DNA from: Mobula hypostoma
Lineage: Eukaryota
Direction of reading: 5' to 3'
DNA: 64,000 nucleotides
Assembly (NCBI RefSeq): GCF_963921235.1
Contig: NC_086097.1
Location: 1,302,001-1,366,000 of the forward strand
In this document: in pieces, positions 6,108-59,917 of the stretch
How the letters are laid out: every line of letters starts with the position of its first letter
Position numbering within the stretch: the stretch's first letter is position 1
Position numbers and translations under genes: made by a program
Notes under the pieces: generated by a model
Databases searched by the model: none
Told to the model about the DNA's origin: nothing
Seen by the model: only the letters and a program-made list of their open reading frames with translations

Positions 6108-6268
6108 AGAATCTCTTACTAGCTCTTCTTTCAGTTAGTCCTGACAAAGGGTCTCAGCCTGAAACGTCGACTGTACCTCTTCCTAGAGATGCTGCCTGGC
6201 CTACTGTGTTCACCAGTAACTTTTATGTGTGTTGCTTGAAATTCCAGCATCTGCAGATTTCCTCGTGT
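6108..6268 (+). mobile_element. Penelope-like terminal repeat (pLTR) fragment with hammerhead motif
   Basis: Shares gatgctgcctggcc...ccagcatctgcaga with 25924-26027, 34283-34490 and 36322-36491. Confidence 0.75.
6137..6172 (+). ncRNA. Hammerhead ribozyme motif with mutated core (CTGACAA), probably inactive
   Basis: agtc-ctgacaa-agggtctcagcct-gaaacgtc-gact; CpG-type G>A change in the CUGANGA box. Confidence 0.6.
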
Positions 6269-6512
6269 CTGCACCCTTTCTATGGTTTCCACATCCTTCT
6301 TGTAGTGAGGTGACCAGAACTGAGCAGAGTACTCTAAGTGGGGCCTGACCAGGGTCCTATATAGCTGCAACATTACCTCTCGGCTCCTAAATTCAATTCC
6401 ACGATTGATGAAGGCCAATACACCGTATGCCTTCTAAACCACAGAGTCAACCTGCACAGCAGCTTTGAGTGTCCTATGGACTCGGACACTCCACACTGCC
6501 AAGAGTCTTACC
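6269..6512 (-). mobile_element. CR1 ORF2 fragment
   Basis: AFINRGIEFRSREVMLQLYRTLVRPHLEY. Confidence 0.85.
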
Positions 6513-6699
6513 ATATTTATATTTAATCAGAATGGCTAAACTGACAGGATCTGAAAGTCTGAACAGAGAGTGATTGGCTGAACCCACACCAAGGGTTCCT
6601 TTGTTCCTTTCCACACTTTACAGCACCAAATGTCAACATAATTAGTGCACTGTCTGAAGAAGAGCTCACATAAATACTTGTTATTGAATACAGAGCAAA

Positions 6700-6912
6700 A
6701 AACATGTGCTGGTGGAACTCCAGCTCAGAGGCCAGGCAGACAGAGGGGTAACCAATGTTTCAGGACAAAACCCTGGCACCAGTTCAGATGAAAGGTCTCA
6801 GCTCAAAGTGTCAACTGTTTATTTCCCTCTGTAGATGCTGCCAGACCTGCTGAGTTCCTCCAGTATGTGTGCATGGTGCTCAAAACTTTCAGCACCTTCA
6901 GTCTCACTTGTG
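6700..6912. mobile_element. Old PLE pLTR pair in inverted (minus then plus) arrangement
   Basis: Degenerate tgctgg..gaactc arm, followed by agttcagatgaaaggtctcagctcaaagtgtcaact and gatgctgccagacctgctgagttcctccag. Confidence 0.55.
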
Positions 6913-6963
6913 TCTCTGTGTAGCATTTTTTAAATTCAGGTTTTCAGCATTCATACTTGTATT

Positions 6964-7870
6964 TAGAAACATAGTGGTATCGGACCATGATACAGGCCCT
7001 TCAGCCCACAATGCTGTGCTGAACATGTACTTACTTTAGAAATTACCTAGGGTTACCCATAGCCCTCTATTTGTCTGAGCTCCATGTACCTAACCAGGGG
7101 TCTCTTAAGACACCCTATTGTATCCGCCTCCACCACCATCGCCGGCAGCCCATTCCACGCACTCCCCACTCTCTGCGTAAAAACTTACCCCTGACATCCC
7201 CTCTGTACCTACTTCCAAGCACCTTAAAACTGTGCCCTCTTGTGCTAGCCATTTCAGCCTCTGAAATGGAAAAAGCCTCTGACTATCCACACGATCAATG
7301 CCTCTCATCATCTTATACACCTCTATCAGGTCACCTCTCATCCTCCGTCTCTCCAAGGAGAAGAGGCTGAGTTCACTCAACCTGCTTTCATGAGGCATAC
7401 TCCCCAATCCAGGCAACATCCTTGTAAATCTCCTCTGCTCCCTTTCTATGGTTTCCACATCCTTCCTGTAGTGAGGTGACCAGAACTGAGCACAGTACTC
7501 CAAGTGGGGTCTGACAAGGGTCCAAAATAGCTGTGACATTACCTCTTGGTTCTTGAACTCAATTCCATGGTTGATGAAGGCCAATGCACCGTACGCCTTC
7601 TTAACCACACAGTCAACCTGCGCAGCAGCTTTGAGTGTCCTATGGACTCGGACCCCAAGATCCCTCTGATCCTCCACACTGCCAAGAGTCTTACCATTAA
7701 TACTATATTCTGCCATCATATTTGACCTACCAAAATGAACCATCTCACACTTATCTGGGTTGGACTCCATCTGCCACTTCTCAGCCCAGTTTTGCATCCT
7801 ATCAATGTCCTGCTGTAACCTCTGACAGCCCTCCACACTATCCACAATACCCCAAACCTTTGTGTCATCA
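6964..7870 (-). mobile_element. CR1 3' ~0.9 kb
   Basis: ORF 7105-7881 runs from DDTK to the C-terminus; tail near 6964. Confidence 0.9.
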
Positions 7871-8527
7871 AATTTCTTCATATAAGTTCCATAAATTCAA
7901 TGCCCTCAATCATCTTCAATAACTTTTTTTAAGCCAATACTTCAATGGAGCCAATTATGACCCTGGGGAAAAAAAACACACACACACACAGTTTTAATAT
8001 TTAAGGTGGGAAGATCAATCACTTCCCTTTTCACAGACTTATTCTAGCTCAGACATTGAAAAAAAACCACATGTGATTGTTGATTAGTCCTGTTACTAAA
8101 ATGCACAGTTAAAACAATGAATCAGACTGCTCTGGCCCATCCTTTTCCCCAGCATAACTATGAGGAAGCTGACAGACAGGTCCACAGCCCCGGATTACGT
8201 TAAAGGAACATTCCAGCTTTCTGTCACACACCCATTCTGTTAACCTCAGCATTCCATCTCAGGAGGCATGCTCTCCACTCAGTGACTAAAAGCAGTATAA
8301 GGGTGTGAGTTTGGCACACTTCGCTGAAGAACATGGAATGATATGCATGCAAAGGATTTAAATTGTTTGAATAGGCTCTCCAACAGTGGTAATGGCTGAA
8401 ATTCACTGAAGACTTAATGCCTGTGATTCATGTTTGTGAATTAACTGGAAACATCGTTGACAGAAGTGCTGTTTATTCACATTGCAGAGAAAAATAAATA
8501 ATTCTGTGTTCAAAATAATCAGGAAAT

Positions 8528-8687
8528 AATGTGACAAAAATTAATTGTAAGCCACTCAGTGATTCAATGTGACGAAGATTAATTGTAAGCCACTCAGTGA
8601 TTCAATGTGACGAAGATTAATTGTAAGCCACTCAGTGATTCAATGTGACGAAGATTAATTGTAAGCTGTTCAGTGATTCAATGTGAC
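8528..8687 (+). repeat. 38-bp minisatellite, ~4.2 copies
   Basis: Unit AATGTGACGAAGATTAATTGTAAGCCACTCAGTGATTC starts at 8528, 8566, 8604 and 8642, plus a partial copy. Confidence 0.95.
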
Positions 8688-9279
8688 ATCGACACACAGT
8701 AGACTCTGCTATGGGCTCACTAATGAACCCTCATAGTATTGGGAACCCAGTCACTGAAAAAAATCAGAACATGACACGTATTGTGTACTAGTAACAGGTA
8801 CAGTAAACTATTCCCTACAGACCTGCTTCCTTTGTTCCTTTGTGTCATATACAGTTTGCAGAACACACAGTGTAGCAAATGGCCAGCTGAGAGAGCAGAT
8901 CTAACTCCGTAATAAATTAGAGGAGCTAAACTGTTTAATTTAGGACTGAATTTCTTTCAAAAATGAAATTCTTACCTGCATGAATTTTCTTCACATCATT
9001 TTTGCAAATAAACAAACACACAATAAACTAATATCATTACAATGCAATAAAAACAATTTGGGTAATCAGTAACCAGAATACATACAATGGCAGTCAATAA
9101 CAAATACATGCAGTTTTACTTGGCAGCATAGGATTTAGAAAATTACCAAAGTTTAAACAAGGATCATTTACCAGCAGAGGAAGTTGGACCCCACATTCCA
9201 GGCAGAAAAGGCCAGTAAATTAGAAAGTGCTGATATGGAAAGCTCCTCTAAATTATCCACAGTATTGACTGTGAAGGTG

Positions 9280-9427
9280 CGGCTTGTGGCTACGGGGATC
9301 AGGGGGTATGGAGGGAAGGCTGGGGCGGGGTTCTGAGTTGGATGATCAGCCATGATCATAATAAATGGCGGTGCAGGCTCGAAGGGCCGAATGGCCTACT
9401 CCTGCACCTATTTTCTATGTTTCTATA
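9280..9427 (+). mobile_element. CR1 3' terminal fragment, same subfamily as 4435-4975
   Basis: Reverse complement of 4435-4570; ends ttttctatgtttctat. Confidence 0.85.
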
Positions 9428-9488
9428 AGAGGAGGAGCAGACTGTCTGGCCCATTAAACCTGGTCCACCATTCAGTGAGATCATGATG

Positions 9489-10090
9489 AACACACACAAA
9501 ATGCTAGAGGAACTCAGCAGGCCAGGCTGCATCCATGGAAAAGAGTACAGTCAATGTTTTGGGCCGAAACATTGACTGTACACAATATGTAGATAAGTCT
9601 ACAAGAGGAGAGGCTGTACTTGATCTGGTATTGGAAAATGAACCTGGTCAGATGTCAGGTCTCTCAGTGGGAGAGCATTTTGGAGATAGTGATCACAATT
9701 CTATCTCCTTACCATAGCATTTGAGAGGGATAGGAACAGACAAGTTAGGAAAGCGTTCAATTGGAGTAAGGGGAAATATGAAGCTACCAAGCAGGAACTT
9801 GGAAGCGTGGAATAGGCTGCCGGCAATGATGGTGGTAGTGGTGGATACAATAGGGTCTTTTGAGAGACTCCTGGATAGGTACATAGAGCTTAGAAAAATA
9901 GAGGGCTATGGGGGCTATGGGTAACCCTAGGTAATTTCTAAGTAAGTCCATGTTTGGCACAGCGTTGTGGACTGAAGTGATGTAGGTTTTCTATGACTAC
10001 TCTTTTGCATAATACTGCCTGGCCGGCTAAGTTCCTCCAGCATTTTGTATGTATTGCTCGAATTTCCAGCATCTGTGGATTTTCTCTTGT
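9489..10090. mobile_element. Palindromic PLE pLTR pair (minus arm 9489-9559; plus arm 9567-9581 and ~9998-10090) split by a CR1 insertion
   Basis: Perfect 15-bp inverted repeat at the centre; the right arm resumes after 9994. Confidence 0.7.
9582..9994 (+). mobile_element. Internally deleted CR1 (APE piece fused to 3' end)
   Basis: QYVDKSTRGEAVLDLVL..DSDHNSI is joined to AWNRLP..LLDRY and the 3' tail. Confidence 0.75.
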
Positions 10091-10239
10091 AGGTCATGAT
10101 TAATACGTGGAGCCAACTCTTTATACTCACCTTATGCCCAAATTCACCTGCTCTGGTGGATGAAATTCTCTCCATCTTAGATTTACAAACAATAATTGGC
10201 ATCCAGCTCCATTTGTTGAAAAGGATACCAAATTTTGAC

Positions 10240-11410
10240 TACCCTATTTGTGTAAAGACAAGGCAAAGCATTGGGACTGGATGGTGTAAACCCCAAGATA
10301 CTGAAGGAGTGTGCTGAGCAACTGTGTGGAGTTCTCCAGTGCATTTTCAATCTGAGCCTCATGCTGGAAAGGCTCCCAACTGTGTGGAAAACATCATGTA
10401 TGGTCCCAGTACCCAAGACGGGCCAACCAAAAGTCTTGAATGACTATTGTCCAGTGGCCCTGACTTCACACATCATGAAGACCCTAGAGAGACTAGTCCT
10501 GGCTCACCTCCAACCCCTGGTCAGATCTGCCTCGACCCCCTGCAGTTTTCCTGTCAGGAGCACATTGGAGTCGATGAGACTGTCATCTACCTGCTGAACA
10601 GAGCCTACTCCCATTTGGATAACAGGGTAGTACTATGAGAATCATGTTTTTTTGAATTCTCAAGTAGCTTCAATACCACACAGCCCTTATTGCTGGGGGA
10701 AAAGCTCTGTTCAATGCAGGTTGGCACTTCCATCGTCTACCTTGGACTTTAGATACAACACTGAGTCATGTCTTCTGCAGAAATTCTCTAATGTTGGGTG
10801 TATAAAGAGAGAACAGGATGAAGTATACAGGGCCCTGGTGGAGGACTTTGCCAAATGGTGCAAGCTGAATCACCTGCAGCTCAACATCAGCAAGACGAAG
10901 AAGATGGTGATGGACTTTAGGAAGACTAAGCCAGCACTGCTCCCTGTTACTGTTGATGGGGAGGGCGTGGATGTGGTGAGAACCTATGAGTACCTGGATG
11001 CACCTGGATGACAGACTTGAGTAGAGCATCAACAAGAAGGGCAAGAATCGCTTCTACTTACTAAGGAGACTGAGGTCACTTGGAGTATACAGGCCTCTCC
11101 TTCACATGTTCTATCAGTTCATTATTACCACTACAATCTTCTATGCAGTGTTGTCTTGGGGCAACGGCATCAACACCTGTGATGCCAACAGGCAACTGAT
11201 TAGAAAGGCTGGCTCTGCTATAGGAGTCAAACTGGACACACTGGAGGCAGTGGTAGAACAAATAAACCTACAGAAAATTCTGGCAATTCTGGACAATGTT
11301 TCTCACTCTCTGCATGCCACCTGGTCTGAACAGAGGATCACTTTTAGTAATAGACTAAGACATCTGTCTATATAGAGCACTATATTAGGTCAATGTTACA
11401 CTCAGCCATT
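10240..11410 (+). mobile_element. Degraded Rex1/Babar-like LINE (RT to C-terminus)
   Basis: GLDGVNPKILKECAEQL, PVALTSHIMKTLERLV, LNISKTKKMVMDFR. Confidence 0.8.
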
Positions 11411-14000
11411 AGACCATAAGACCAAATGCCACAGGAGCAGAATTTTAGGCTGTCTGGCCCATCAACTCTGCTCTGCCATTCAATCATGGCTGATCCTTTT
11501 TTTCTTCTCTCCTCCTCAACCCCATTTTCCAGCCTTCTCCCCATAACCTTTGAAGCCATGTCCAATCAAGAACACATCAATCTCTGCCTTAAATACACCC
11601 ATTGACTGTACTTCCAGAGCTGCAAGGGGCAACAAATTGCACAAATTTACCACCCTCTGGCTAAAGAAATTTCTCAGCACATCTGTTTTGAAAGGGCGCC
11701 CCTCTATCTTGAGGCTGTGCCCTCTTGTCCTAGACTCTCCCACCACGGGAAACATCCTTTCCACATCTACTCTGTCTAGGCCTTTCAACATTCGAAAGGT
11801 TTCAATGAGGTCCCCACCACCCATCCTTCTGAATTCCAGTGAGTTGAGGCCAAGAGCCATCAAACGATGTTCGTATGATAACCCCTTCATTGCTGCAATC
11901 ATCCTTGTGAACCTCCTCTGGACTCTCTCCAATGCCAGCACATCTTTTCAAAGATGAGGAGCCCAAAACTGTACAATACTCAAGGTGAGGCCTCACCATT
12001 GCCTTATAAAGCCTCAGCATCACATCCCTGCTCTTGTATTCTACACCTCTTGAAATGAATGCTAACATGGCATTTGCCTTCCTCACCACCAACTCTACCT
12101 GCAAGTTAACCTTCAGGGTGTTCTGCACAAGGAATCCCAAGTCCCTTTGCATCTCAGATTCTTGGACTTTCTCCCCGTTTAGAAAATAGTCTACACATTT
12201 ATTTCTATTACCAAAGTGCATGACCATGCATTTTCCAGCATTGTATTTCATTTGCCACTTTCTTGTCCATTCTCCTGATCTGTCCTTCTGCAGCCTACCT
12301 GTTTCTTCAACACTACCTGCCCCTCCACCAATTTTCATATTGTCTGCAAACTTGGCAACTAAGCCATCTATTCCAACATCTAAATCATTTATATAAAAAG
12401 TGAAAAGAAGTGGTCCCGATACCAACCCCTGCGGAACACCACTAGTCACTGGCAGCCAACCAGACAAGGATCCTTTTATTCCCACTCACTGCCTCCTTCC
12501 AACCAGCCAATGTTCTAAATATGCCATTAACTTTCCTGTAATACCATGGGCACTTAACTTGGTAAGCAGCCTCATATGTGGCACCTTGTCAAAGGCCTTC
12601 TGAAAGTCCAAATATACAACATCCACTGCATCCCCTTTATCTATCCTACTTGTAATCTCCTCAAAGAATTTCAACAGGTTTGTCAAGCAAGATTTTCCCT
12701 CGAGGAAACCATGCAGACTTTGTCCTATCTTGACCTGTGTCACCAAGTACTCCCTAACTTCATCCTTAACAACTGAGTCCAACATCTTCCCAACCACTGA
12801 GGTCAGGCTAACTGGTCTATAGTTTCCTTTCTTCTGCCTTCCTCATTTCTTAAAGAGTGGAGTAACATTTGCAATTTTCCAGTCCTCTGGCACCATGCCA
12901 GAGTCCAAAGATTTTTGAACGATCATTGCTAATGCTGTCATAATCTCTAACGCTACCTCTTTCAGAACCCTAGGATGTAGTTCATCTGGTCCGGGTGACT
13001 TATGTACCTTTAGGTCTTTCAGCTTTTTGAGCACCTTCTCCCTTGTAATAGTAACTGCACCCACTTCTTGTCCTTCAGACACTACAACATCTGGCACAAT
13101 TCTAGTGTCTTCCACAGTGAAGAATGATACAAAATACTCATTTAGTTAATCAACCAACTCCTTGTTCCCCGTTATTATTTCTCCTGCCTCATTTTCTAGC
13201 ATGCCATATCCACTCTCATCTCTCTTCTGTTTTTTTTACATACTTGCAAAAGCTTTTACTATCCATTTTGATATATTTCCTCACTTGCTTTCATATTTCA
13301 TCTTTTCCTTTCAAATAATTATTTTAGTTGCTCTCTGTAGGTTTTTAAAAACAGCCCAACCCTCTACCTTTCCACTAATTTTTGCTTCGTTGTATACCCT
13401 CTCTTTTGTTTTTACTTTAGCTTTGACTTTAACCCACAAGAATTCAATCTTCCAGTCCTATGTTACATCTTTCTACTGATTTGGTGCCATTCATTACCAG
13501 CAGAGCCACACCACCCCCTCTGCCGACCTTCCTATCCCTCCAATATTACATGTAACCTTGGACATTCAGCTCCCAACTACAACCATCCTTCAGCTACGAT
13601 TCAGTGATGGCCACAACATCATACCTGGCCATCTGTAATGGTGCAATAAGATCATCCACCTTACTGTGCATTGAGAGACAACACATTGAGTACTGTACTT
13701 GTTACCCTTTTCGATTTTGCATCCCTAATATACTGATACTCGCCCTGTTGGCTGCGACTATATTCCATCACCTGCCTGCCCTTCCTGACAGTCTGACTGC
13801 ACGCTATCTTTACTCTTTTTACCATCTGTCCTATCCTGAGTCCCTTCACTCCGGTTCCCACCCCCCGGCCAAATTAGTTTAAACCCTCCCCAACAGCTCT
13901 AACAAACCTGCCTGCTGAATATTGGTCCCCATTGGGGTTAGGTGCAACTCTTCACTTTTGAACATGTCATACCTCCCCCAGAAGAGAACCCAATGATCCA
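11410..14000 (-). mobile_element. CR1 ~2.6 kb with internal deletions (ORF1 end, RT, 3'UTR)
   Basis: KSPGPDELHPRVLKE, YLDFQKAFDKVPH, SGVPQG and KFADN across broken ORFs. Confidence 0.88.
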
Positions 14001-23278: not shown

Positions 23279-23279
23279 T

Positions 23280-25660: not shown

Positions 25661-25923
25661 GTCTACGTCTAGAACACAGAACATTACAGCTCAGTAAGTG
25701 CCCTCCAGCCATAAATTTTGTGCTGGCCCTTTAACCTACTCCAAACACCTTTTAAATGTTGCAGTTGGACCCATCTCCCAGCACTCTCAGCCCCTTCTAA
25801 ATATTTCCTCTCTCCTCATGTCTGTGGCCCAGAACTGTACACAATACTCTGGGTGTGACTTACCAAGGCTTTGTGCAGCAGTGCAGATATTTACACACCA
25901 CTAACAAAGGCATTCCAACTATT

Positions 25924-26027
25924 CCAACAGAGTCCTGACGAAGGGTCTCGGCCTGAAACGTCGACTGTACCTCTTCCTAGAGATGCTGCCTGGCCTGCTG
26001 CGTTCACCAGCAACTTTGATGTGTGTT
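25924..26027 (+). mobile_element. ~104-bp PLE-derived hammerhead insertion with 14-bp TSD
   Basis: GCATTCCAACTATT at 25910-25923 and 26028-26041. Confidence 0.85.
25931..25966 (+). ncRNA. Minimal type I hammerhead ribozyme, intact core
   Basis: AGTC-CTGACGA-AGGGTCTCGGCCT-GAAAC-GTC-GACT. Stem I is AGTC/GACT, stem III is the palindromic ACGT, and predicted cleavage follows GUC at 25962. Confidence 0.8.
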
Positions 26028-26194
26028 GCATTCCAACTATTGTTTGTATTTTTCTACTGCACAGACAACCAAAATGTTTGGTTTCCATTGTTGCTGGCTT
26101 TTTATCATTTAAGTAACTCTCTGATCAATCCAAATCACCATCTAACAGCCTCACTGCAATGTTTTACCTTGCCTATACTGCTTGTTTCTAACTA

Positions 26195-30460: not shown

Positions 30461-30464
30461 GTGA

Positions 30465-31170: not shown

Positions 31171-31179
31171 CAATAATAG

Positions 31180-33669: not shown

Positions 33670-34490
33670 CAGAGAAGATGGGGTTGGGGGCATACCGTAA
33701 GTTCAAGAAATCGATGTTCATGCCATCATGTTAGAGGCTACCCAGACGGAATATAAAGTGTTGTTCTTCCAATGTAAGTGTGGCCTCATCACGACATTGG
33801 AGGACATGGATAGACATATTAGAATGGGAAAGGGAAGTAGAACTAAAATGGGTGGCTACTGTGAGATCCTGCTTTTCCTGGCAGATGAAGCATAGGTGCT
33901 TGGCGAAGCAGTCTCCCAATCTACGCTGGGTCTCATCGATATACAGGAGGCCAAACCAGGAGCACCGGACACAGTATGTGACCCCAACAGATTCACGAGT
34001 GAAGTGTCGCCTCACCTGGAAGGACTGTTTAGGGCCCTGAGTGCTAGTGAGGGAGGAGGTGTAGAGGCAGGTGTAGCCCTTGATCCACTTGCAAGGATAA
34101 GTGCCAGGAGGGCGATTAGTGGGGAGGGATGAATGGCCAAGGGAGTCACGTAGGGAGTGGTCCCTGTGGAAGGCAGAAAGTGGGGGAGGGGAAGGAAAGA
34201 TGTGCTTGCTGGTGGGATCCTGTTGGCGATGGTGGAAGTTTTGGAGAATTATGCATTGGATGCAGAAGATGGTGGTGTAGTACTTCATCTCTCCCCCTTC
34301 AGATTTCACCGATTACCTTGTGTTTTTCTCTCCACTCCCCCCGCCATCAGCTTTTTTTCTCCACTCCTGCCGAAGGACCTCGGCCCGAAATGTTGACGGT
34401 TTTTTTCCCATAGATGCCGCCTGGCCTCTTAGTACATCCAGCATATTGAGTGTGTTGCTTGGATTTCCAGCACCTGCAGAGTTTCTCTTG
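33670..34490 (-). mobile_element. Penelope-like element remnant: GIY-YIG endonuclease plus inverted pLTR (34283-34490, plus strand)
   Basis: ORF 33731-34309 contains TYPC..CLY...VTYCVRCSWFGLLYIDETQRRLGDCFAKH. The inverted repeat carries a degenerate hammerhead at ~34363-34398. Confidence 0.82.
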
Positions 34491-35004
34491 TTATCCAACT
34501 TCCCATGCACATTGATATCTTACGTGCCCTTTCCTTGGCTTTTATGCAGTCCTGAGCTCACCTTGCCTAGCCCTGCGATTTGAGAACTATTGCTTCTGTG
34601 GGGAATATCTATCCTGTGCCTTGTCAACTATTCCCAGAAATTTCAGAAACCTCTGCTCTGCCGTCATCTGTGCGAGTAACCATCTCCGATCCACTTGGGC
34701 AAGCTCCTCTTTCATTGTCTGTTATTCCCATTATTCCATTGTGATACTGATACGTATGACTTACGCTTCTCTCTCTCAGATTGTAGTAAGAATTCAATCA
34801 TATTATGCTCACTGTCTCCTAAGGGTTCCTTTACATTAAGCTCCCTAATAAGACCATAAGCAGAGTTGGGCCATTGGTCCCTTTGAGTCTGCTCTCACAT
34901 TCATTCGGGGCTGATCCTTTGCCCCCTCGTCAACCCCATAGCCCGCACGTCTCCTCTCAACTTTTGATTCCACGTCCAATCAAGAACCTATCAATCTCTG
35001 CCTC

Positions 35005-35929: not shown

Positions 35930-36321
35930 GGTAGAGGGATAAGTAGTGTTGAGGAAATAGGTAGGCTGCAGAGGGGCTTGGACAGATTAGGGGAATGGGC
36001 AAGAAAATGGCAAAATACAATGTTGGAAATTGCCTGGTCATGTACTTTAGTAGTAGAAATAAATGTGCAGACTATCTTCTAAATGGGTAGGAAACCCAAA
36101 AATCTGAGATGCAAAGGGACTTGGGAGTTCTTGTGCAGAACACCCTAAAGGTTAACTTGCAGGTCGAGCCGGTGGTGAGAAAGGCAAATACAATGTTATA
36201 TTCATTTCAAGAGGTGTAGAAAAAAGAGCAGGGATGTGATGCTGAGGCTTTATAAGTCACTGGTGAGGCCTCACCTTGAGTATTGTGAATAGTTTTAGGC
36301 TCCTTATCCAAGAAAAGATGT

Positions 36322-36491
36322 AAACAACAGGAATTCTGCAGATGCTGGAAATTCAAGCAACATACATCAAAGTTGCTGGTGAACGCAGCAGGCCAAGTCC
36401 TGACGAAGGGTCTCGGCCTGAAACGTCGACTGCGCCTCTTCCTATAGATGCTGCTTGGCCTGCTGCGTTCACCAGCAACTTTGATGTATGT
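36322..36491. mobile_element. 170-bp fold-back PLE-derived hammerhead insertion with 15-bp TSD
   Basis: TCCAAGAAAAGATGT at 36307-36321 and 36492-36506; perfect 39-bp inverted repeat at 36359-36397 / 36454-36492. Confidence 0.88.
36396..36431 (+). ncRNA. Minimal type I hammerhead ribozyme, intact core
   Basis: Same 36-nt sequence as 25931-25966; predicted cleavage after 36427. Confidence 0.8.
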
Positions 36492-36972
36492 TCCAAGAAA
36501 AGATGTGCTGGCATTGGAGAGGGTTCAGAGGAGGTTCACAAGGATTATTCTAGGAATGAAAGGGTGACGATATGAGGAATGTTTGATAGCTCTTGGTCTG
36601 AATTGGCTAGAATTTAGAAGGGGGGGGGATCTCATTGAAACCTTTCGAATGTTGAAAGACCTCGACAGAGTAGATGTGGAAAGGATGTTTCCCATGGTGG
36701 GGGAGTACTAGGACAAGAGGGCACAGCCTCAGGATAGAGGGGAGTCCATTCAAAACAGGGATATGGAGAAATTTCTTTATCCAGAGGGTGGAAAATGTTT
36801 GGAATCTGTTACCATAGGCAAGTGTGGAGGCCAGGTCATTGGGTGTATTTAGAAACAGAGAAAACCTGCAGAACAATACAGGCCCTTTGGCCTACAAAGC
36901 TGTGCCGAACATGTCCTTACCTGAGAAATTACCTAGAGTTAAACATATCCCTCTATTTTTCTGAGCTCCATA

Positions 36973-38500: not shown

Positions 38501-38501
38501 C

Positions 38502-51700: not shown

Positions 51701-51826
51701 CTGCTCATAGTAATCCAAATATGGTCTCACAAATGCCTTATACAGCTTCGGAATTACACCCTTGGTCTTATAATCTAGTCTTATCAAAATTAATGTTAAC
51801 ATTGTGTTTGCATTCCTGACTACAAA

Positions 51827-52620
51827 AGGAGTTGGTGAAGAATGTGCAGAAAAGGAAGCTGGAATATGCCGGGCACTTGTTAACATAGAACATAGAGTTA
51901 GTACAGCACAGAACAGGTCCTTCGGCCCACAATGTTGTGCCGACCCTCAAACCCTGCCTCCCATATAAGCCCCCACCTTAGATTCCTCCATATACCTGTC
52001 TAGTAGTCTCTTAAACTTCACTAGTGTATCTGCCTCCACCACTGACTCAGGCAGTGCATTCCACACACCAACCACTCTCTGAGTAAAAAACCTTCCTCTA
52101 ATATCCCCCTTGAACTTCCCACCCCTCACCTTAAAGCCATGTCCTCTTGTATTGAGCAGTGGTGCCCTGGGGAAGAGGCGCTGACTATCCACTCTATCTA
52201 TTCCTCTTATCATCTTGTACACCTCTATCATGTCTCCTCTCATTCTCCTTCTCTCCAAAGAGTAAAGCCCTAGCTCCCTTAATCTCTGATCATAATGCAT
52301 ACTTTCTAAACCAGGCAGCATCCTGGTAAATCTCCTCTGTACCCTTTCCAATGCTTCCACATCCTTCCTATAGTGAGGTGACCAGAACTGGACACAGTAC
52401 TCCAAGTACTTAAGATGTGGTGGGCCGCAGAAATTGTTATTGGAAGGGATGACAGAAGGAAAGAGGGAAAGAGGAAGGCAGCGAACCACTTGGTACGATA
52501 ATGTGAGGCAATGGACTGGGCTGAGATACGCTGAGGCCAGGAAAATAGCGCGAGATCGAAGAAGACGGAGGTGCACAGCCGCCAACTCCGGATTGGGGAC
52601 GGCACCCACTGACTGACTGA
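51827..52620 (+). mobile_element. RTE-clade LINE 3' fragment with (CTGA)n tail, split by a young CR1
   Basis: Rejoined frame reads VQKRKLEYAGHLLRCGGPQKLLLEGMTEGKRERGRQRTTWYDNVRQWTG; 11-bp TSD. Confidence 0.8.
51884..52409 (-). mobile_element. Young CR1 3' fragment nested in RTE
   Basis: Nearly identical to 42984-43505; TTAA at both junctions. Confidence 0.92.
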
Positions 52621-53401
52621 CTGACTACAAATTAAACTTTAGAGAAACCTGCACTCCCAAGTCCCTTTGCATATCCGATTTCTGAATTATCTCAACATTT
52701 TAAAAAATGTCTTTATTCCTTCTACCAAAGTGTATGACCATACTCTTCCTACACTATATTCCAACTGGCACCTCTTTGCTTATTCTCCCAATCTGTCCAA
52801 GTCCTTCTGCAGGCTCCCTGCTTCCTCAACACCATCTCCCTTCTCCCTATGTTTGTATCAGCTGCAAATTTAGCCACAAAACTAAAATTCTGTCATCTAG
52901 ATCATTTAAATATAATGTGAAAAGTTGCAGATCCTAATTGAACATCACTAATTCCTGGCAGCCAATCAAAAAAAGCCCCCTTTATTCACACTCTCTGTCT
53001 TCTGCCAGTCAGCCAATCTTCTAGCCATACAAGCAACTTTTCTGTAATACCATGGGCTCCTATCTCAAGTATGGCACCTTCTCAAAGGCCTTCTGGAAAT
53101 CCAAGTAAACAACATCCACTGATCTCTTTTACCTGTTATTTCCTCAAATAATTGCAACAGATTTATTAGGCAAGATCTCCTCTTAAGGAAACGATGGCAA
53201 TTTCACCCCTGTTTTATTGTGTGCTTCCAAGTACCATGAAATCTCATCCTTAATAACGGACTCCAACATCTTCCATTCCACTGAAGTCAGGCAAACTGGC
53301 CGATCATTTCCGTTCCTCTGCCTCCCTCCCTTCTTAAAGAGTGGAATGACATTTGTGATTTTCCAGTCCTCTGGAACTATTCCAGAATCTAGTGATTCTT
53401 G

Positions 53402-54950
53402 AAAGGAACACTAGAACAAATGAGGTGCTTATGGAGTACAGGAAATGCAAGAGAACACTTAAAAAAGAAATCAAGAGGGCTAAAAGAAAGCACAAAGTTG
53501 TCCCAGCAGACAAGGTGAAGGAGAATCCTAAGAGATTCTACAGATATGTTAAGAGCAAAAAGATTGCAAGGGACAAAATTGGTCTTCTGGAAGACCAGAG
53601 TGGTAATCTATGTGGAGAAAAAAAAAAGATGTGAAAGAAATGGCATTCTTTGGAGAGACGAATACAGAGTTCATAGAAGTGAGGCAAAGTGGCATCAACT
53701 TCATGGACCCTGTTACAGATTACAGAGAAGGAGGTGTTTGCTACCCTGAGGTAACTCAGTGTGGATAAATCCCCAGGGCCTGACATGGTGCTCCCTCCGA
53801 CCCTACGGGAGGCAAATGAAGAAATTGCCGGAGTCCTGGCAGAGACATTTAAAACATCCTCAGTGAAGAGAGAGATACCAGAGAATGTTGTTCCGCTGTT
53901 TAAAAAAAGGCCCTAAACGTAAACCAGGAAATTATATGCCAGTGAGTGTGACATCAGTTGTGGGAAAGTTATTGAAAGGTAATCTAAGGGATCAGATATA
54001 GACGTGGACTGATTAAGGATAGACAGCATGGCTTGTGTGTAGTAGGTTATACCTAACTAATCTGATAGACTTTTTCGAGGAAGCTACCAGGAAAGTGGAT
54101 GAAGGTAAGGCAGTGGAAGTTGTCTACAGGAACTTTCCTAAGGCACTTTACAAGGTCCCGCATGGGAAGCTGGTCAAGAAGGTTCAGTCACTCAGCATTC
54201 CAGGATGAGGTAGTAAATTGGATTAGACATTGGCTTTGTGGGAGAACCCTGAGAGTGGTAATAAATGGTTGCCTCTCTAGTGGAAGCCTGTGACTAGTGA
54301 TGTGCTGCAGGGATCAGTTCTGGGTCCTTTGTTACTTGTCATCTATATCAGTGATCTGGATGATAATGTGGTTAATGGATCAGCAAATTTGTGGATGACA
54401 CCAAGACTGGAGGTGGACAGTGAGGAAGGCTATCATGGCTTGCAGATGGTATTTAATACAGACAAGTACGAGGTTTTGCACTTTGGTAGAACCAGCAGGG
54501 TAGGTCTTACACAGTGAATGGTCGGGCACTGAGGAGTGTGGTGGAACAAAGGGTTCTGGTAATACAGGTACATAATTCATTGAAAGTGGCATCACAGGTA
54601 GATAGGGTTACAAAGAAAACTTTTGGTACATTGGCCTTCATAAATCAATGTATTGAGTACAGAAGATGGGATATTATGTTGAAGTTGTACAAGATGTTGG
54701 TGAGGCTAAATTTGAGGTATTCTGTGCAGTTTCGGTCACCTATCTACAGGAAAGATGTAAACAAGGTTGAAAGAGGGCAGAGAAAATTTACAAGGATGTT
54801 GCCGGGTCAGGAGAACCTGAGTTCTAAAGAAACATTGAATCAGTTAGGACTGTATTAGAACGTAAAAGATTGAGAGGAGATTTGATAAGGGTTATATAAA
54901 ATTATGAGGGGTATAGATCGGGGAAATGCAAACAGGCTTTTTCCACTGAG
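53402..54950 (+). mobile_element. Old CR1 ORF2 fragment
   Basis: [25 protein letters not shown]. Confidence 0.8.
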
Positions 54951-57900
54951 GCTCCTCTGGAATCTCTCCAATGACAACACATCCTTTCTGAAATACAGGG
55001 CCCAAAACTGTTGGCAATACAGCAAGTGCAGCCTGACTAGTGTCTTATAAAAACTCAGCATTATCTCCTTGTTTTTATATTCTATTCCCCTTGAAATAAA
55101 TGCCAACATTGCATTTGCCTTCTTTACCGCAGACTCAACCTGTAACTTCACCTTCTGGGAGTCTTGCACAAGGACTCCTAAGTCCCTTTGCATAAGACCA
55201 TAAGATTTAGGAGCAGAAGTAGGCCATTCGGCCCATTGAGTCTGCTCTGCCATTCAATCATGGCTGATCCAATTCTTCCAGTCATCCCCACTCCCCTGCT
55301 TTCACCCCATACCCTTTGATGCCCTGGCTAATCAAAAACCTACCTATCTCTGCCTTAAATACACCCAATGACTTGGCCTCCACAGTCACTCGTGGTAACA
55401 AATTCCACAGAGTTACCACCCTCTGACTAAAGTAATTTCTCTGCATCTCAGTTCTAAATGGACATCCTTCAATCCTGAGGTCGTGCCCTCTTGTCCTAGA
55501 ATCCCCTACCATGGGAAATAACTTTGCCAGATCTAATCTGTTCAGGCCTTGTAACATTTGGAATGTTTCTATGAGATCCCCCATCATTCTCCTGAACTCC
55601 AGGGAATACAGCCCAAGAGCTGCCAGATGTTCTTCATACAATAACCCTTTCATTCCTGGAATCATTCTCGTGAATCTTCTCTGACCCCTCTCCAATGTCA
55701 GTATATCCTTTCTAAAATAAGGAGCCCAAAACTGCACACAGTACTCCAAGTGTGGTCTCATGAGTGTCTTATAGAGCCTCAACATCACATCCCTGCTCTT
55801 ATATTCTATACCTCTAGAAATGAATGCCAACATTACATTTGCCTTCTTCACAACTGACTGAACTTGGAGGTTAACCTTCAAGGTATCCTGCACACGGACA
55901 CGCAAGTCCCTTTGCATCTCTGCATTCTGAATTCTCTCCCCATCTAAATAATAGTCTGCCTGTTTAGTTCTTTCACCAAATTGCATGACCACACACTTTC
56001 CAACATTATATTTCATTTGCCATTTCTTTCCCATTCCCCTAAACTATTTAAGTCTCTCTGCAGGCTTTCTGTTTCCCCAACACCACCCACTCCTTCACCT
56101 GTCTTTGTATTATCAGCAAATTTAGCCACAAATTGATTAATACCGTGGTGCAAATACTGACCCCTGTGGAACTCCTCTGGTAACCAGCAGCCAGTCAGAA
56201 TAGGATCCCTTTATTCCCACTCTCTGTTTTCTGCCAACCAGCCAATGCTCCACCCACACTAGTAACTTCCCTGCAATTCCATGGGATCTTATCTTGCTGA
56301 GCAGCTTCATGTGCGGCACCTTGTCAAAGGCCTTCTGAAAATCCAAGTACACCACATCTACTGCATCTCCTTTGACTACCTTTCTTGTAATTTCCTCAAA
56401 GAATTGCAGTAGGTCTGTCAGGCAGGATTTTCCTTTCAAGAAACCATACTGGCTTTGGCCTATCTTCCCATTTGCCTCCAGGTATTCCGTAATCTCATCC
56501 TTAACAATTGATTCCAACTTCTTCCCAACCACTGATGTCAGGCTAACAGGTCTATAATTTCCTTTCTGCTGCCTCCCACCCTTCTTAAATAGCGGAGTTA
56601 CATTTGACCAATGCATCTGTTATCTCTTCAGCAACCTCTCTCAGGACTCTGGGATGCAGTCCATCTGGTCCAGATGACCAGATCCACCTTAAGACCTTTG
56701 AATTTGCTGAGCACTTTTTCCTTTGTAATAGCAATGGCTCTCACTCCTGCTCCCTGACACTCACAGACCTCTGGCGCACTGCCAGTGTCTTCCACAGTGA
56801 AGACAGATGCAAAGTACCCTTTAAGTTCATCTGCCATTTCTTTGTCCACCATTACTACCTCACCAGCATCATTTTCCAGTGGTCTAATATCAACTTTCAT
56901 CCCCCTATTATTCTTTAGATAACTGAAAAATCTTTTGCTATCTTGTTAAATATTATGGCTAGTATGCCCTCATATTTCATCTTTTCCCTTAGATCTTTTC
57001 TTAGTTACCTTTTGTTGGATTTTAAAAACATAGAAAACCTACAGCACAATACAGGCCTTTCGGCCCACAAAGCTGTGCCGAACATGTCCTTACCTTAGAA
57101 CTACCTAGGCTGACCCATAGCCCTCTATTTTTCTAAGCTCCATGTACCCATCCAGGAGTCTCTTAAAAGATGCTATCGTTTCCGTCTCCACCATCGCCGC
57201 TGGCAGCCCATTCCACGCACTCACCACTCTCTGCGTAAAAAAAAATTACCCCTGATATCTCCTCTGTACCTACTTCCAAGCACCTTAAAACTATGCCCTC
57301 TTGTGCGAGCCATTTCAGCCAGGGAAAAAGCCTCTGACTATCCACATGATCAATGCCTCTCATCATCTTATATACCTCTATCAGGTCACCCCTCATCCTC
57401 TGTCGCTCCAAGGAGAAAAGGCCGAGTTTACTCAACCTATTCTCATAAGGCATGCTCCCCAATCCAGGCAACATCCTTGTAAATCTCCTCTGCACCCTTT
57501 CTATGGGTTCCACCGTCCCTCCTGTAGTGAGGTGACCAGAATTGAGCATAGTACTCCACGTGCGGTCTGACTAGGGTTCTATATAGCTGCAATATTAGGG
57601 TCCTAACCTCTCAGCTCTTAAAATCAATCCCACTGTTGATGAGGGCCAATGCACCATATGCCTTCTTAACCACAGTCAACCTGCATAGCAGCTTTGAGTG
57701 TCCTATGGACTCAGACCCCAAGATCCCTCTAATCCTCCACACTGCCAAGAGCCTTACCATTAATGCTATATTCTGCCATTATATTTGACCTACCAAAAAT
57801 GAACCATCTCACACTTATCTGGGTTGAACTCCATCTGCTACTTCTCAGCCCAGTTCTGCATCCTATCAATATTCCACTGTAACCTCTGACAGCCCTCCAC

Positions 57901-59030
57901 ACTATCCACAACACCCCCAACCTTTCTGTTACCAGCAAATTTACTAACCCATCCCTCCACTTCCTCATCCAGGTCATTTATAAAAATCACGAAGAGTAAG
58001 GGTCCCAGAACAGATCCCTGAGGCACACCACTGGTCACCGACCTCCATGCAGAACATGACCCGTCTACAACCACTCTTTGCCTTCTGTGGGCAAACCAGT
58101 TCTGGATCCACAAAGCAATGTCCCCTTGGATCCCATGCCTCCTTACTTTCTCAATAAGCCTTGCTGAAATCCATATACTTAAACTTCCCAATCATCCAAC
58201 TTGCCACTCACTTTTGCTACCTTACATGCCCTTTTTTGGCTTTTATACAGTCCTTAACTTCCCTTGTCAGCCATGGTTGCTCATCCCTGCCATTTGAGAA
58301 ATTCTTCTCTGTTGGACAAATTTACCCTGCGCCTTGTGAACTACTCCCAGAAACTTCAGCCATCTCTGCTCTGCCACAGTACCGTCCTCCAATCCACCTG
58401 CCTCTGTATTTCGCTTCTTTCCATTGCAATACTGATACGTGTGACTTGTGCTTCTCCCTCACAAATCGCAGTATGAATTCAATCATATTATGATCACTGC
58501 TTCCTAAGGGTTCCTTTACCTTAAGCTCCCTAATAAGATCTGGGTTATTACACAACACCCAATCTAAAATAGCCTTTCCCACAGTAGGATCAAGCACAAG
58601 CTGCTCTAAAATGGCATCTTGTGGGCATCCAACAAATTCCCACTCTTGTGATCCATCTTCTTTTTTCAAATGCTATGTGCCTTCCAAATGTCCAACTTCA
58701 GTCCTTCATTCTTCGCCCATTTGAATCTTGCCTCAGTAGTTCAATTTAACCCTTTGCTCTGTTCTCCCTTCCCTCTCCTGAGTCACCCATTATCTGCCTC
58801 CTGTAGCCTTGAGGTGACGACCTCCCTGTAGCTCCTGTCTATCATGCCTTACTTTCCCTAACAAGCCAAAGGTCGTCGAGCTGCAGCTCCAGTTCCCTAA
58901 CTCGGTCTCTAAGGAGCTGCATCTCGATGCATAGGGTGCAGATGTTGCCATCAGGGATGCTTGGCATCTCCTGGAAAACCCATATCAGAATACTGGCACT
59001 GTAGACATACCCTCTGTTCTCTCAGGATTA
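54951..59030 (-). mobile_element. Stack of CR1 copies: 54951-55190; host 55191-57025 plus 58181-59030; nested 57026-58180
   Basis: RT ORFs at 55282-56900 and 57163-58191; APE piece at 58322-58669; ORF1 remnant at ~58800-59000. Confidence 0.82.
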
Positions 59031-59687
59031 AAATAAGAAATGAGGAATGAACCCAGGCTCCGAAATCTGAATCTGTGTAATGCAGTTATAATTATATTGG
59101 ATCAATAGGCCTGCCATCTGGCAGGTGGTGAGAACCGCGTAGAGCTCATGTTAAAACACTAAGACAGGAAGCCTACTTCAATTCATCAGGGGATAAACTT
59201 TAAGTACAGCAGTGGCATTTAATGTATTGATTTTAGTTAATTATCAACTGAACATGAAACACTTCTCCATAGAGACTGGGCATCTGCTGGTGCTTACACA
59301 TTTCAAACCAGCCGCAGGAGGGGGCAGTGCTTGCAACACCACATGGTAACAATGAGAAACCAAGGACAACAGGTCTGTCCATGCTCCACAACACAACTTC
59401 TTTCTATACTCCAGTCAGTGACAGCAGCTAATTTTGTTCTCAACAAATCAAAAACATTATTTGTGACCGAATCAGCTCAGCTGCCCTATGCCAACCTTTA
59501 TGTCCAATGTGAGCCTTCACCTTTCATATCACATGAGCACATTCTCCAATTCCTTTCTCTACCACATCCTAATCCAGCTTCCCTTAAAAGCATTCATCAA
59601 GGCAGACTCAGAGTAATATGGCCTGGAAGCAGACAATTAAATCAAATCTATCCATGCTGACCACTAAACTAGTCACATTTGCCTGTA

Positions 59688-59917
59688 GGAACACTCACAA
59701 TGCGCTGGAGGAACTCAGCAGGTCAGTCAGCATCAGTTGAAAAGATTAGTCGACGTTTCGGGCCGAAACCCTTCGTCAGGACTGAAGGAAGAACTTTGGG
59801 GAGGGTTTGAAGAATGCTGGTAGTTGAAAAAGACAGTAATTTGAAAGACAAAGGGGTGGGGGAGGGGAAGCAGGGAGGTGATTGGCAGGAGAACAGCATC
59901 TGCAGATTATTTTGTGT
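59688..59917 (-). mobile_element. 230-bp PLE-derived hammerhead insertion with 15-bp TSD and short inverted tail
   Basis: TCACATTTGCCTGTA at 59673-59687 and 59918-59932; inverted cagcatctgcagattattttgtgtt at the right end. Confidence 0.85.
59748..59783 (-). ncRNA. Minimal type I hammerhead ribozyme, intact core
   Basis: Reverse complement is AGTC-CTGACGA-A-GGGT-TTCG-GCCC-GAAAC-GTC-GACT; stem II is closed by a UUCG loop. Confidence 0.8.

What the first reader, a model, noticed from the sequence alone, without database searches (positions are those of the whole stretch)
6137..59783. Dispersed family of minimal hammerhead ribozymes in short Penelope-derived repeats
Seen: the motif AGTC-CTGACGA-(A)GGG.N6.CC(C/T)-GAAAC-GTC-GACT is intact at 25931, 36396 and 59748 (minus), and decayed or partial at 6137, 6781, 9545-9581 and 34363. 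That is seven sites in 64 kb, always inside the same non-coding repeat. It has the CUGANGA and GAAA boxes, a GUC cleavage triplet, stem I AGUC/GACU, and a loopless ACGU stem III that can form only in a dimer. Established: minimal type I hammerheads with a palindromic stem III occur in PLE terminal repeats and in metazoan retrozymes. Inference: this is an abundant self-cleaving, non-autonomous retroelement family that gene annotation would miss. I cannot confirm whether it has been described in this lineage.
Basis: partly seen in the sequence, partly recalled or inferred. Interest (0 to 1): 0.78.

Follow-up and report, generated by a model that had tools for sequence, protein, structure and literature searches.

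The report
Penelope retroelement tails with minimal hammerheads
The repeated motif is the small hammerhead self-cutting RNA motif that Penelope-like jumping genes are already known to carry near their ends, here in very high copy number in a probable cartilaginous-fish genome, and the copies in this window are dead tail-end fragments.

Summary
Three complete minimal type I hammerhead (HHR) motifs lie at 25931-25966 (+), 36396-36431 (+) and 59748-59783 (-), against 0 expected by chance. Relics lie at 6137, 6781 and 34363. The 9545-9581 site is a fold-back of the 3' half only.

The repeat is the 3' end of an autonomous, Neptune-like Penelope-like element (PLE). A full copy, L021, reads HHR, then a 1043-aa RT plus GIY-YIG frame, then HHR, inside 611-nt pseudo-LTRs. 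The window copies are 5'-truncated or fold-back insertions with 14-15 nt target duplications. They are not a separate non-autonomous family.

Genome-wide I counted 42,891 exact cores plus 15,462 of a variant class; reversed-pattern controls gave 0.

The kind is known (Cervera and De la Pena 2014), and this scan met it before in other shark-like genomes.

Cleavage is unproven:
- The stems show no covariation.
- The predicted energy disfavours the active fold.
- No RNA data could be had.

One new hint: copies whose first base is the G just after GUC are 1.9-3.4 times as frequent as copies starting at the neighbouring positions tested, in two families. A palindrome at the site is a confounder.

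The parts
25924..26027 (+). 5'-truncated family-A PLE tail insertion. It holds 7 extra bases, the HHR and the tail without the last ~35-nt extension. It is flanked by the 14-nt target duplication GCATTCCAACTATT at 25910-25923 and 26028-26041.
25931..25966 (+). Intact minimal type I hammerhead motif. Predicted cleavage is after C25962.
36322..36491 (+). Family-A fold-back insertion. An inverted tail arm with the tail extension (36322-36395) abuts a + arm that starts exactly at the HHR (36396-36491). It is flanked by the 15-nt target duplication TCCAAGAAAAGATGT at 36307-36321 and 36492-36506.
   Evidence: inverted repeat of 46 nt, 93% complementary
36396..36431 (+). Intact minimal hammerhead motif. 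Predicted cleavage is after C36427.
59688..59917 (-). Family-C PLE tail insertion on the - strand: about 105 nt of 3' UTR, the HHR and the tail. A 25-nt tail extension lies in the opposite orientation at its 5' end (59893-59917). The 15-nt target duplication TCACATTTGCCTGTA is read by eye at 59673-59687 and 59918-59932; one search found 13 nt of it within the limits I set.
59748..59783 (-). Intact minimal hammerhead, variant form: helix II closes with G-C instead of G.U, and the loop is UUCG. Predicted cleavage is after the C at 59752.
6102..6272 (+). Family-A tail copy with a full tail extension. The HHR at 6137-6172 is dead (G8 to A and a loop G to A, both CpG to CpA).
6691..6917 (.). Old family-B head-to-head pair: a - arm at 6691-6774 and a + arm at 6781-6917. 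The HHR relic is at 6781-6816.
9485..9581 (-). Old family-B tail on the - strand ending in a fold-back. The junction lies in the helix II region, and only the 3' half of the HHR is present, in both orientations (9545-9581).
9995..10091 (+). Family-B tail-only copy. Its first base is the G that follows the GUC site. No HHR is present.
33695..34288 (-). PLE endonuclease-coding fragment, matching aa 843-1043 of the L021 frame at 70% identity. It lies head-to-head with the + copy that follows.
   Evidence: tblastn E 5e-75
34283..34495 (+). Older copy with 3' UTR, an HHR relic (34363-34398: CUGCCGA in place of CUGANGA, and GAAAUGUU) and a full tail.

Best explanation
The seven sites are insertions of the 3' end of Penelope-like retroelements (PLEs) of a Neptune-like type. 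A full unit is about 3.5 kb. It holds one RT plus C-terminal GIY-YIG frame of about 1040 aa, about 300 nt of 3' UTR, the 36-nt minimal type I hammerhead, and then a tail of about 100 nt at which genomic copies end.

Shown here: full copies sit in partial tandem, so the hammerhead and tail recur upstream of the frame as a pseudo-LTR. Most copies are 5'-truncated. Many carry an inverted 5'-truncated partner, head to head.

Inferred, by analogy with published work on other PLEs:
- In tandem master copies the transcript carries two hammerheads 3.5 kb apart.
- Each lacks a helix III of its own, so they can cut after GUC only by pairing their ACGU stretches with each other, or with help from the element's protein.
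- Reverse transcription starts internally at the tail end.

The short dispersed copies in this window are dead on arrival. Their hammerheads are passengers with no same-strand partner nearby, and most have decayed at their four CpG sites.
For: Identity of the element.
- L021 has HHR cores at 3024-3051 and 6539-6566 flanking a stop-to-stop frame of 1043 aa at 3109-6237. The stretch 2545-3153 repeats 6058-6668 at 98.5% identity.
- Pfam gives RVT_1 (E 2e-4) and GIY-YIG (E 1e-3), both below the curated cut-offs. All 120 listed homologues carry at least one of the RT-associated families PF00078, PF28514 and PF26215; all three together are the commonest set, and 27 of the 120 also list PF01541. The best named hit is a bamboo-shark protein at 71% identity.
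- The linker reads C-x4-C-x2-C before the GIY-YIG domain. In the passages of PMC8557442 that I read, that motif is absent from Penelope/Poseidon.

Insertion signatures.
- L023 has inverted arms of 1180 nt at 99.7% identity.
- Among the first 100 exact cores, 10 adjacent pairs within 1.5 kb are head-to-head, 1 is same-strand and 0 are of other kinds. About 2.4 close pairs would be expected at random.
- Three window copies have target duplications of 14-15 nt.
- The last ~35 nt of the tail is present at one end only, as described in PMC8557442.

Abundance. The exact 28-nt core occurs 21,383 + 21,508 times. The class with C at 11.1 occurs 7,687 + 7,775 times. Controls gave 0.

Depth. Contig depth in 4 runs peaks over the HHR and tail and falls about 500-fold after the tail end.

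Conservation.
- Families A and C agree at 32-34 of 36 HHR positions, against 57-58 of 90 in the tail. Upstream identity is at the level of shuffled sequence (47-50 of 80; shuffled mean 49-50).
- 13 of 30 nhmmer alignments start at the HHR's 5' edge.

A hint of cutting. I counted copies with three non-native bases upstream, by the first base kept.
- Family A: +1, 487; +2, 182; +3, 159; +4, 148; +5, 263; -3, 214.
- Family C: +1, 61; +2, 18; +3, 22.
Against: - No compensatory change occurs in helix I or helix II among 22 copies of three families. There is only the one-sided G-C to G.U change, and shuffles reach the observed covariation score in 300 of 500 trials. RNAalifold does not recover the fold.
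- ViennaRNA puts the double-hammerhead fold at -9.5 to -11.9 kcal/mol, against -28 to -46 for the best dimers. The monomer's best fold pairs core bases 5-8 with 15.2-17.
- Rfam's hammerhead models do not report the motif even at E up to 10.
- The family-C and some family-A2 copies used for the conservation figure were fetched with a pattern that fixed the core. Their HHR identity is therefore biased upward, and the limited variation in the core is partly by construction.
- The +1 excess shrinks once recurrent junction forms are removed. By my count by eye these are 58 of the first 100 rows, read as fold-backs and microhomology deletions. What remains is about 1.4-1.8 fold in family A and about 1.9 fold in family C.
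- GTC|GAC is itself a 6-nt palindrome, and palindromes attract fold-back junctions here. A second hotspot sits on GT|AC (25 of the first 100 rows).
- For another PLE (Anolis PAc), cutting needed the protein, was not needed for insertion in vitro, and left no reads ending at the site (PMC11167929, passages read).
Confidence: 0.8

Rival explanations
1. One reading: the short repeats are a distinct non-autonomous, self-cleaving retroelement family (retrozyme-like or SINE-like). They would be copied in trans by PLE enzymes and would spread as short units, perhaps through circular RNA.
For: - Most copies are short.
- One insertion, L033:4990-5355, holds two decayed HHR-plus-tail modules 194 nt apart on one strand, joined by about 60 nt of the unit's 5' start. 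That looks like an internally deleted mini-element.
- One same-strand pair of exact cores lies 460 nt apart at C1:5927975 and C1:5928435.
- A 2026 preprint argues that animal retrozymes derive from PLE pseudo-LTRs (10.64898/2026.07.22.740005; abstract and Results read).
Against: - The 5' ends vary and run continuously into the 3' UTR and endonuclease frame of the autonomous element.
- The window has no same-strand pair of intact motifs closer than 10.5 kb.
- Among close pairs of exact cores, 10 of 11 are head-to-head. That arrangement puts an antisense copy, not a second ribozyme, on the same transcript.
- No circular RNA or any RNA evidence could be obtained.
Confidence: 0.08
2. The hammerhead-like block is kept for a reason other than cutting. 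Examples are a binding or positioning element for the element's own RT/EN protein, part of the signal for internal initiation together with the conserved tail blocks, or a hitch-hiker that exploits the PLE. On this view it rarely or never cleaves in vivo.
For: - The stems show no covariation.
- The predicted energy of the active fold is poor.
- Conservation continues into tail blocks such as GATGCTGCC and CCAGCATCTGCAG in all families.
- Published work: in vitro activity of such motifs is low even as dimers (PMC4209133). For PAc, cutting was not needed for insertion and no reads ended at the site (PMC11167929). Naiad PLEs thrive without a hammerhead, and the authors raise the idea that HHRs 'simply parasitize PLEs' (PMC8557442, passages read).
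Against: - Every canonical core base is retained in both abundant forms of the core: C3 to A9, G12 to A14, A15.1, U16.1 and C17.
- Two of those families have flanks that diverged to 63% identity in the tail and to random levels upstream.
- Copy starts at the exact predicted product end are in excess in two families.
- Pausing of the RT at the base of helix I would predict ends at +4 or +5 rather than +1. The count at +4 is the lowest tested (148), although +5 is raised (263).
Confidence: 0.3

Closest known systems
Minimal hammerheads (min-HHR) in the pseudo-LTRs of metazoan Penelope-like elements (Cervera and De la Pena 2014, PMC4209133; parts 1 and 2 of the text read)
   Same: - Type I topology with a short helix I (4-5 bp).
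- An unpaired base between positions 9 and 10.1.
- G10.1-C11.1 in the variant form.
- No helix III loop and a palindromic 15.2/16.2.
- Location in both flanking repeats of an RT-EN frame.
- Thousands of dispersed single motifs from truncated PLEs.
- Pairs on opposite strands about 100-700 bp apart.
   Different: - Helix II here is only 4 bp with a tetraloop; the paper reports 7-8 bp in Schistosoma.
- The main form closes helix II with G.U.
- The copy number is far higher: at least 58,353 intact cores of two forms, against about 4,000 in coelacanth and about 9,000 in Xenopus in that paper.
- The host is a probable cartilaginous fish, which that paper does not list.
Poseidon element PAc of Anolis carolinensis (Frangieh et al. 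2024, PMC11167929; passages read)
   Same: - Tandem pLTR-ORF-pLTR layout.
- An HHR just upstream of, or at, the start of the frame.
- Genomic copies end at a fixed 'tail' downstream of the HHR, which fits internal initiation of reverse transcription.
   Different: - In PAc the frame starts inside the HHR. Here the first conserved ATG lies about 35 nt past the tail end.
- The endonuclease linker here has the C-x4-C-x2-C motif, which points to Neptune rather than Poseidon.
- Nothing was tested at the bench here.
Non-LTR retrozymes of animals (Cervera and de la Pena 2020, PMC7229834, search listing only; Li, Clavereau and Pollet 2026 preprint, abstract and Results read)
   Same: Type I hammerheads related to PLE pseudo-LTRs. 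One mini-tandem was seen, in L033.
   Different: Retrozymes are short tandem units, each with an HHR, that give circular RNAs. The copies here are dispersed, 5'-truncated or fold-back single insertions.
Double-hammerhead cutting of newt satellite and viroid RNAs (Forster et al. 1988; seen only as cited in PMC4209133 and PMC6765202)
   Same: Helix III is too weak to form within one copy, so two copies must pair to build the active site.
   Different: Those RNAs come from close tandem repeats. Here same-strand partners are 3.5 kb apart in full copies and absent for dispersed copies.

Membership tests
Hammerhead ribozyme, minimal type I form of PLEs (min-HHR) | Conserved core: C3 U4 G5 A6 N7 G8 A9, G12 A13 A14, A15.1, U16.1, H17 | tested here: met
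   All are present at 25931, 36396 and 59748(-). They are lost at 6137 (G8A), 6781, 34363 and 9545.
Hammerhead ribozyme, minimal type I form of PLEs (min-HHR) | Helix I closes the motif (open ends) and is 4-5 bp long | tested here: met
   AGUC pairs with GACU. 89.8% of cells are paired in 22 copies. No pair shows a change on both sides.
Hammerhead ribozyme, minimal type I form of PLEs (min-HHR) | Helix II hairpin with an extra base after A9 and a G10.1-C11.1 pair | tested here: met
   An A follows CUGACGA. GGGU pairs with GCCY, with 98.9% of cells paired. The closing pair is G-C in 11 copies and G.U in 11. The G.U form is the commoner one genome-wide.
Hammerhead ribozyme, minimal type I form of PLEs (min-HHR) | No helix III loop, and palindromic 15.2/16.2 so that two copies can pair | tested here: met
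   ACGU is read directly from the sequence. The dimer fold can be written as a nested structure, but it is predicted to be much weaker than its rivals.
Hammerhead ribozyme, minimal type I form of PLEs (min-HHR) | Self-cleavage after H17 | tested here: inconclusive
   No bench test and no RNA reads were available. The only indirect sign is an excess of genomic copies that start at the next base, and it is confounded by the GTCGAC palindrome.
Rfam hammerhead families (covariance models) | A match at the gathering score, or any reported match | tested here: not met
   There were 0 matches at gathering on the window. No hammerhead match appeared at E up to 10 on 25800-26100, or at E up to 1 on L008:600-1700. 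That these models expect a helix III hairpin is my own knowledge, not a tool result.
Penelope-like elements, canonical C-terminal EN+ | A single frame with RT followed by a GIY-YIG endonuclease | tested here: met
   The L021 frame is 1043 aa. RVT_1 matches at residues 507-671 and GIY-YIG at 919-993, both below Pfam's cut-offs. There are 307 homologues, the best at E 5e-282, and the listed ones carry RT-associated and, in part, GIY-YIG families.
Penelope-like elements, canonical C-terminal EN+ | Pseudo-LTRs from partial tandem copies, an adjacent inverted 5'-truncated copy, and a 30-40 bp tail extension at one end | tested here: met
   Direct repeat of 611 nt in L021 and inverted repeat of 1180 nt in L023. 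Window cases at 36322-36491 and 59688-59917.
Neptune clade of PLEs | A CX2-5CxxC linker before GIY-YIG, plus CCHH; the linker is absent in Penelope/Poseidon | tested here: inconclusive
   The linker C-KRNK-C-YA-C is present. I did not map CCHH and made no RT tree, so the clade name is provisional.
Non-LTR retrozymes | Short tandem units, each with a type I HHR | tested here: not met
   The window has no same-strand intact pair closer than 10.5 kb. Of 11 close pairs among 100 exact cores, 1 is same-strand.
Non-LTR retrozymes | Unit-length circular RNA | not testable with these tools
   No listed run is on record as RNA, and the runs are held only as contigs.
SINE | A fixed 5' head with an internal pol III promoter | tested here: not met
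   Copy 5' ends vary from position 2 to 332 of the 431-nt reference. I did not run a tRNA or pol III scan.

The most novel reading that the evidence does not exclude
The genome may itself record that these minimal hammerheads cut in vivo. In two independent PLE families, dead copies start at the exact base after GUC about 2 to 3 times as often as at neighbouring bases. Many fold-back junctions also have their long arm ending there. This is what would be expected if the 3' cleavage fragment (tail plus downstream RNA) is often the template that the element's RT copies to its end. If true, it would be the first in vivo evidence for cleavage by a vertebrate PLE hammerhead. It would also explain why so many copies are HHR-less or HHR-edge tails.
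Probability: 0.3. Interest if true: 0.55.

Novelty: new member of a known kind. Interest (0 to 1): 0.25.

Why it matters
The catch adds a very large and apparently young example to a known kind: at least 58,000 intact cores, copies 97-99% alike, and open 1040-aa frames. The host is a probable cartilaginous fish, a group for which I found no description of these motifs. Gene annotation would not show them.

The size of the family is its main value. The function of PLE hammerheads is still open, because in vitro activity is low, cutting is not needed for insertion in the one system studied, and some PLE clades lack the motif. Tens of thousands of dated dead copies allow the RNA ends that were reverse-transcribed to be read from copy boundaries. 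The modest excess at the predicted cleavage product found here shows that such a test is feasible. It needs a full boundary map to be convincing.

Tried and rejected
- Rfam at gathering score and at loose E-values gave no hammerhead match.
- RNAalifold on 22 copies predicted an unrelated weak long-range pairing with no compensatory changes.
- A candidate hairpin at the tail end (GAAUUU...CAG CAU CUG...AGAAUUC) has one pair with a change on both sides, in 2 copies. That is not above the shuffles, so I make no claim for it.
- RNA evidence: no RNA holder was listed by the look-up of sequencing runs. All 22 runs are of guessed or unknown kind and are held as contigs. Laying 4 of them gave depth and boundaries only, with no molecule ends (table 6: none).
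The unbiased sample is therefore 264 kb, giving 30 copies.
- A paper by Lunse, Weinberg and Breaker on PLE hammerheads cleaving as dimers (PMC5785218) is not held. I saw it only as cited in PMC6765202.
- I considered counting perfect palindromes centred on the cleavage site as evidence of cutting. I rejected this because GTCGAC is self-complementary and would attract such junctions anyway.
- I considered a SINE reading and rejected it because the 5' ends vary.
- Supplements of PMC4209133, which hold the descriptor figure and the species table, were not opened. They may list further fish species.
Full report
**1. The observation**

The 36-nt motif is exact at 25931-25966 and 36396-36431 on the + strand. 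It has two changes at 59748-59783 on the - strand and at 6137-6172. The looser pattern CTGANGA-N(4-30)-GAAACGTC gives 3 matches, against 0 in 100 shuffles.

I also wrote a descriptor of my own. It required the core boxes, helix II of at least 3 bp, a paired 15.2/16.2, UH, and helix I of at least 4 bp. It finds exactly the three intact sites in the window, 4 in 264 kb, and none in 50 shuffles.

The other sites are not intact:
- The 6137 copy has lost G8 and one loop base through CpG decay.
- 6781 and 34363 are old relics.
- 9545-9581 is not a hammerhead. It is a fold-back junction that repeats only the GAAAC...GACTGTAC half in both orientations.

Rfam reports nothing, even at loose thresholds.

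**2. What the repeat is**

The window lies in a 3.48-Gb assembly. There the exact 28-nt core occurs 21,383 + 21,508 times, and the reversed-pattern control gives 0. A variant class with C at position 11.1 occurs 7,687 + 7,775 times.

Longer copies run upstream through about 300 nt of pyrimidine-rich 3' UTR into a reading frame. Its last 165 residues hit Pfam GIY-YIG and give 200,969 first-look candidates in the genome. Some of the 150 scored places lie in open frames of up to 1043 aa.

Three loci were examined in detail:
- L021 is a full unit. It has an HHR core at 3024-3051, a stop-to-stop frame at 3109-6237 and a second HHR core at 6539-6566. The stretch 2545-3153 repeats 6058-6668 at 98.5% identity, so the unit is 3,513 nt and the pseudo-LTR is 611 nt.
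- L023 has an inverted 1,180-nt 5'-truncated copy abutting the forward copy at 99.7% identity.
- L021, L022 and L023 are 97-98% alike.

The frame has RVT_1 and GIY-YIG matches, both weak and below the curated cut-offs. It has 307 homologues, and the listed ones carry RT-associated families and, in part, GIY-YIG. The best named one is a bamboo-shark protein at 71% identity. The linker before GIY-YIG reads C-x4-C-x2-C. By the passages I read in PMC8557442, that speaks for Neptune rather than Penelope/Poseidon. I made no tree.

**3. Anatomy of the window copies**

An nhmmer search with the 431-nt 3' UTR + HHR + tail of L021 gives 30 hits in 264 kb (the window plus the next 200 kb), 9 of them in the window. 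A profile built from three families adds two weak inverted arms. A tblastn search adds an endonuclease fragment at 33695-34288 on the - strand, head-to-head with the 34283-34495 copy.

The three young copies have target duplications of 14-15 nt. Two of them carry, at their 5' end, an inverted piece of the tail that includes the last ~35 nt, which the forward arm lacks. This 'tail at one end' pattern, together with the inverted 5'-truncated partner, is the published signature of PLE insertions (PMC8557442, passages read).

Among the first 100 exact cores in the genome, 10 adjacent pairs within 1.5 kb are head-to-head and 1 is same-strand. About 2.4 close pairs of any kind would be expected at random.

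Contigs of four public runs of unknown kind show depth rising towards the HHR and tail. Depth then falls about 500-fold just past the tail end. That fits massive 5' truncation and a fixed 3' end.

**4. Families and conservation**

At least three families share the module:
- Family A is young. Its subforms differ at CpG sites.
- Family C has a different 3' UTR and helix II loops UUCC or UUUC.
- Family B is older.

Between A and C the HHR agrees at 32-34 of 36 positions and the tail at 57-58 of 90. The 80 nt upstream agree no better than shuffled sequence. With tail-level divergence, 4 or fewer differences in 36 positions has probability 5e-4.

In addition, 13 of 30 nhmmer alignments begin within a few bases of the HHR's 5' edge. 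Contigs of three runs diverge upstream at that same edge (table 7).

One caveat applies. The family-C and some family-A2 copies were fetched with a pattern that fixed the core, so their HHR identity is biased upward. The family-level point rests on the whole-genome counts of intact cores.

There is no covariation. Helix I and helix II are simply conserved. The only variation is G-C against G.U at the closing pair of helix II, and shuffles match the observed scores. Within a family, dead copies decay fastest in the motif, because it holds four CpGs.

**5. Does it cut?**

This cannot be tested here. ViennaRNA predicts that the 36-nt motif prefers a rod in which core bases 5-8 pair with 15.2-17. 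It puts the domain-swapped double hammerhead at -9.5 to -11.9 kcal/mol, against -28 to -46 for the best dimers. The model ignores tertiary contacts.

This agrees with what is published:
- In vitro activity of such motifs is low (PMC4209133).
- The Anolis element cleaves only with its protein (PMC11167929).
- Dispersed copies have no same-strand partner nearby. In full tandem copies the partners are 3.5 kb apart.

**6. A genomic test of cutting**

If RNA cut after GUC is reverse-transcribed from the tail, the copies should begin at the next base. I counted genome-wide matches to the tail anchor preceded by three non-native bases, for different first retained bases.

| First retained base | Family A | Family C |
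|---|---|---|
| -3 | 214 | not tested |
| +1 | 487 | 61 |
| +2 | 182 | 18 |
| +3 | 159 | 22 |
| +4 | 148 | not tested |
| +5 | 263 | not tested |

All reversed-pattern controls gave 0.

The excess at +1 is real as a count, but it is not clean. The following counts are mine, by eye:
- In the first 100 rows for +1, 58 carry six recurrent upstream triplets: CAG 15, CCT 14, AGA 9, CGA 7, AGT 7 and ACA 6. I read most of these as fold-backs or microhomology deletions.
- Removing recurrent forms from every list leaves about 205 at +1, against about 110-150 at the other positions, in family A.
- In family C it leaves 31 at +1, against 16 at +2 and 16 at +3.

GTC|GAC is also a palindrome, and a second junction hotspot lies on GT|AC (25 of the first 100 rows). 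I rate this as a hint only.

**7. Comparison with what is known, and novelty**

Everything structural matches canonical PLEs and their min-HHRs (PMC4209133, PMC8557442, PMC11167929, PMC6765202). The retrozyme reading fails on layout. I saw only one mini-tandem (L033) and one close same-strand pair.

I found no paper on these motifs in cartilaginous fishes. A 2026 preprint sampled one chondrichthyan for retrozymes.

This scan had already reached the same reading on other shark-like DNA. I saw those notes, after my own analysis. Notes on this same genome call it a cartilaginous fish.

**Verdict**

The catch is correct. It is a new and very abundant member of a known kind, and its function is still open.

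Noticed in passing
L033:4990-5355 (about 95-97 kb beyond the window's end): One insertion, with the target duplication GATAAAATAAGTCAG, lies inside a LINE RT frame. It holds an inverted tail, then HHR + tail, then about 60 nt of the PLE unit's 5' start, then HHR + tail again. The two decayed hammerheads are 194 nt apart on one strand. This looks like an internally deleted mini-PLE, close to a retrozyme dimer.
   Followed up: partly
Genome C1:5927975 and C1:5928435: Two exact HHR cores on the same strand, 460 nt apart. This is the only same-strand close pair among the first 100 exact cores. I did not fetch it.
   Followed up: no
Genome-wide, rows: About 22 of the first 100 rows read [C/T]TAGTC|GACTG. 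That is an exact loss of the 28 nt enclosed by helix I. It could come from the RT skipping across a formed helix I, or from a deletion between the two GTC repeats.
   Followed up: no
Genome-wide, rows: Perfect inverted duplications are centred on the element's own short palindromes. They sit on GTC|GAC in 22 of the first 100 rows, and on GT|AC six bases downstream in 25 of the first 100 rows. Fold-back junctions therefore favour self-complementary sites.
   Followed up: partly
window 9995-10091: A family-B tail copy begins exactly with the G that follows the GUC site. It abuts what looks like the 3' end of a LINE.
   Followed up: partly
window 9580-9900: A LINE endonuclease-coding fragment (...SDHN...), read by eye from the sequence only.
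   Followed up: no
L021:3109-3200: The 1043-aa stop-to-stop frame opens inside the upstream tail. An in-frame ATG there is present in A1 copies but reads GTG in A2 copies. The first conserved ATG is about 35 nt past the tail end.
   Followed up: partly
window 107-130 of alignment A1 (for example window 6243-6266): The invariant block CCAGCATCTGCAG near the tail end is flanked by bases that could pair (GAAUUU with AGAAUUC). One pair switches U-A to A-U in two copies, which is not significant. It may mark the site where reverse transcription starts.
   Followed up: partly
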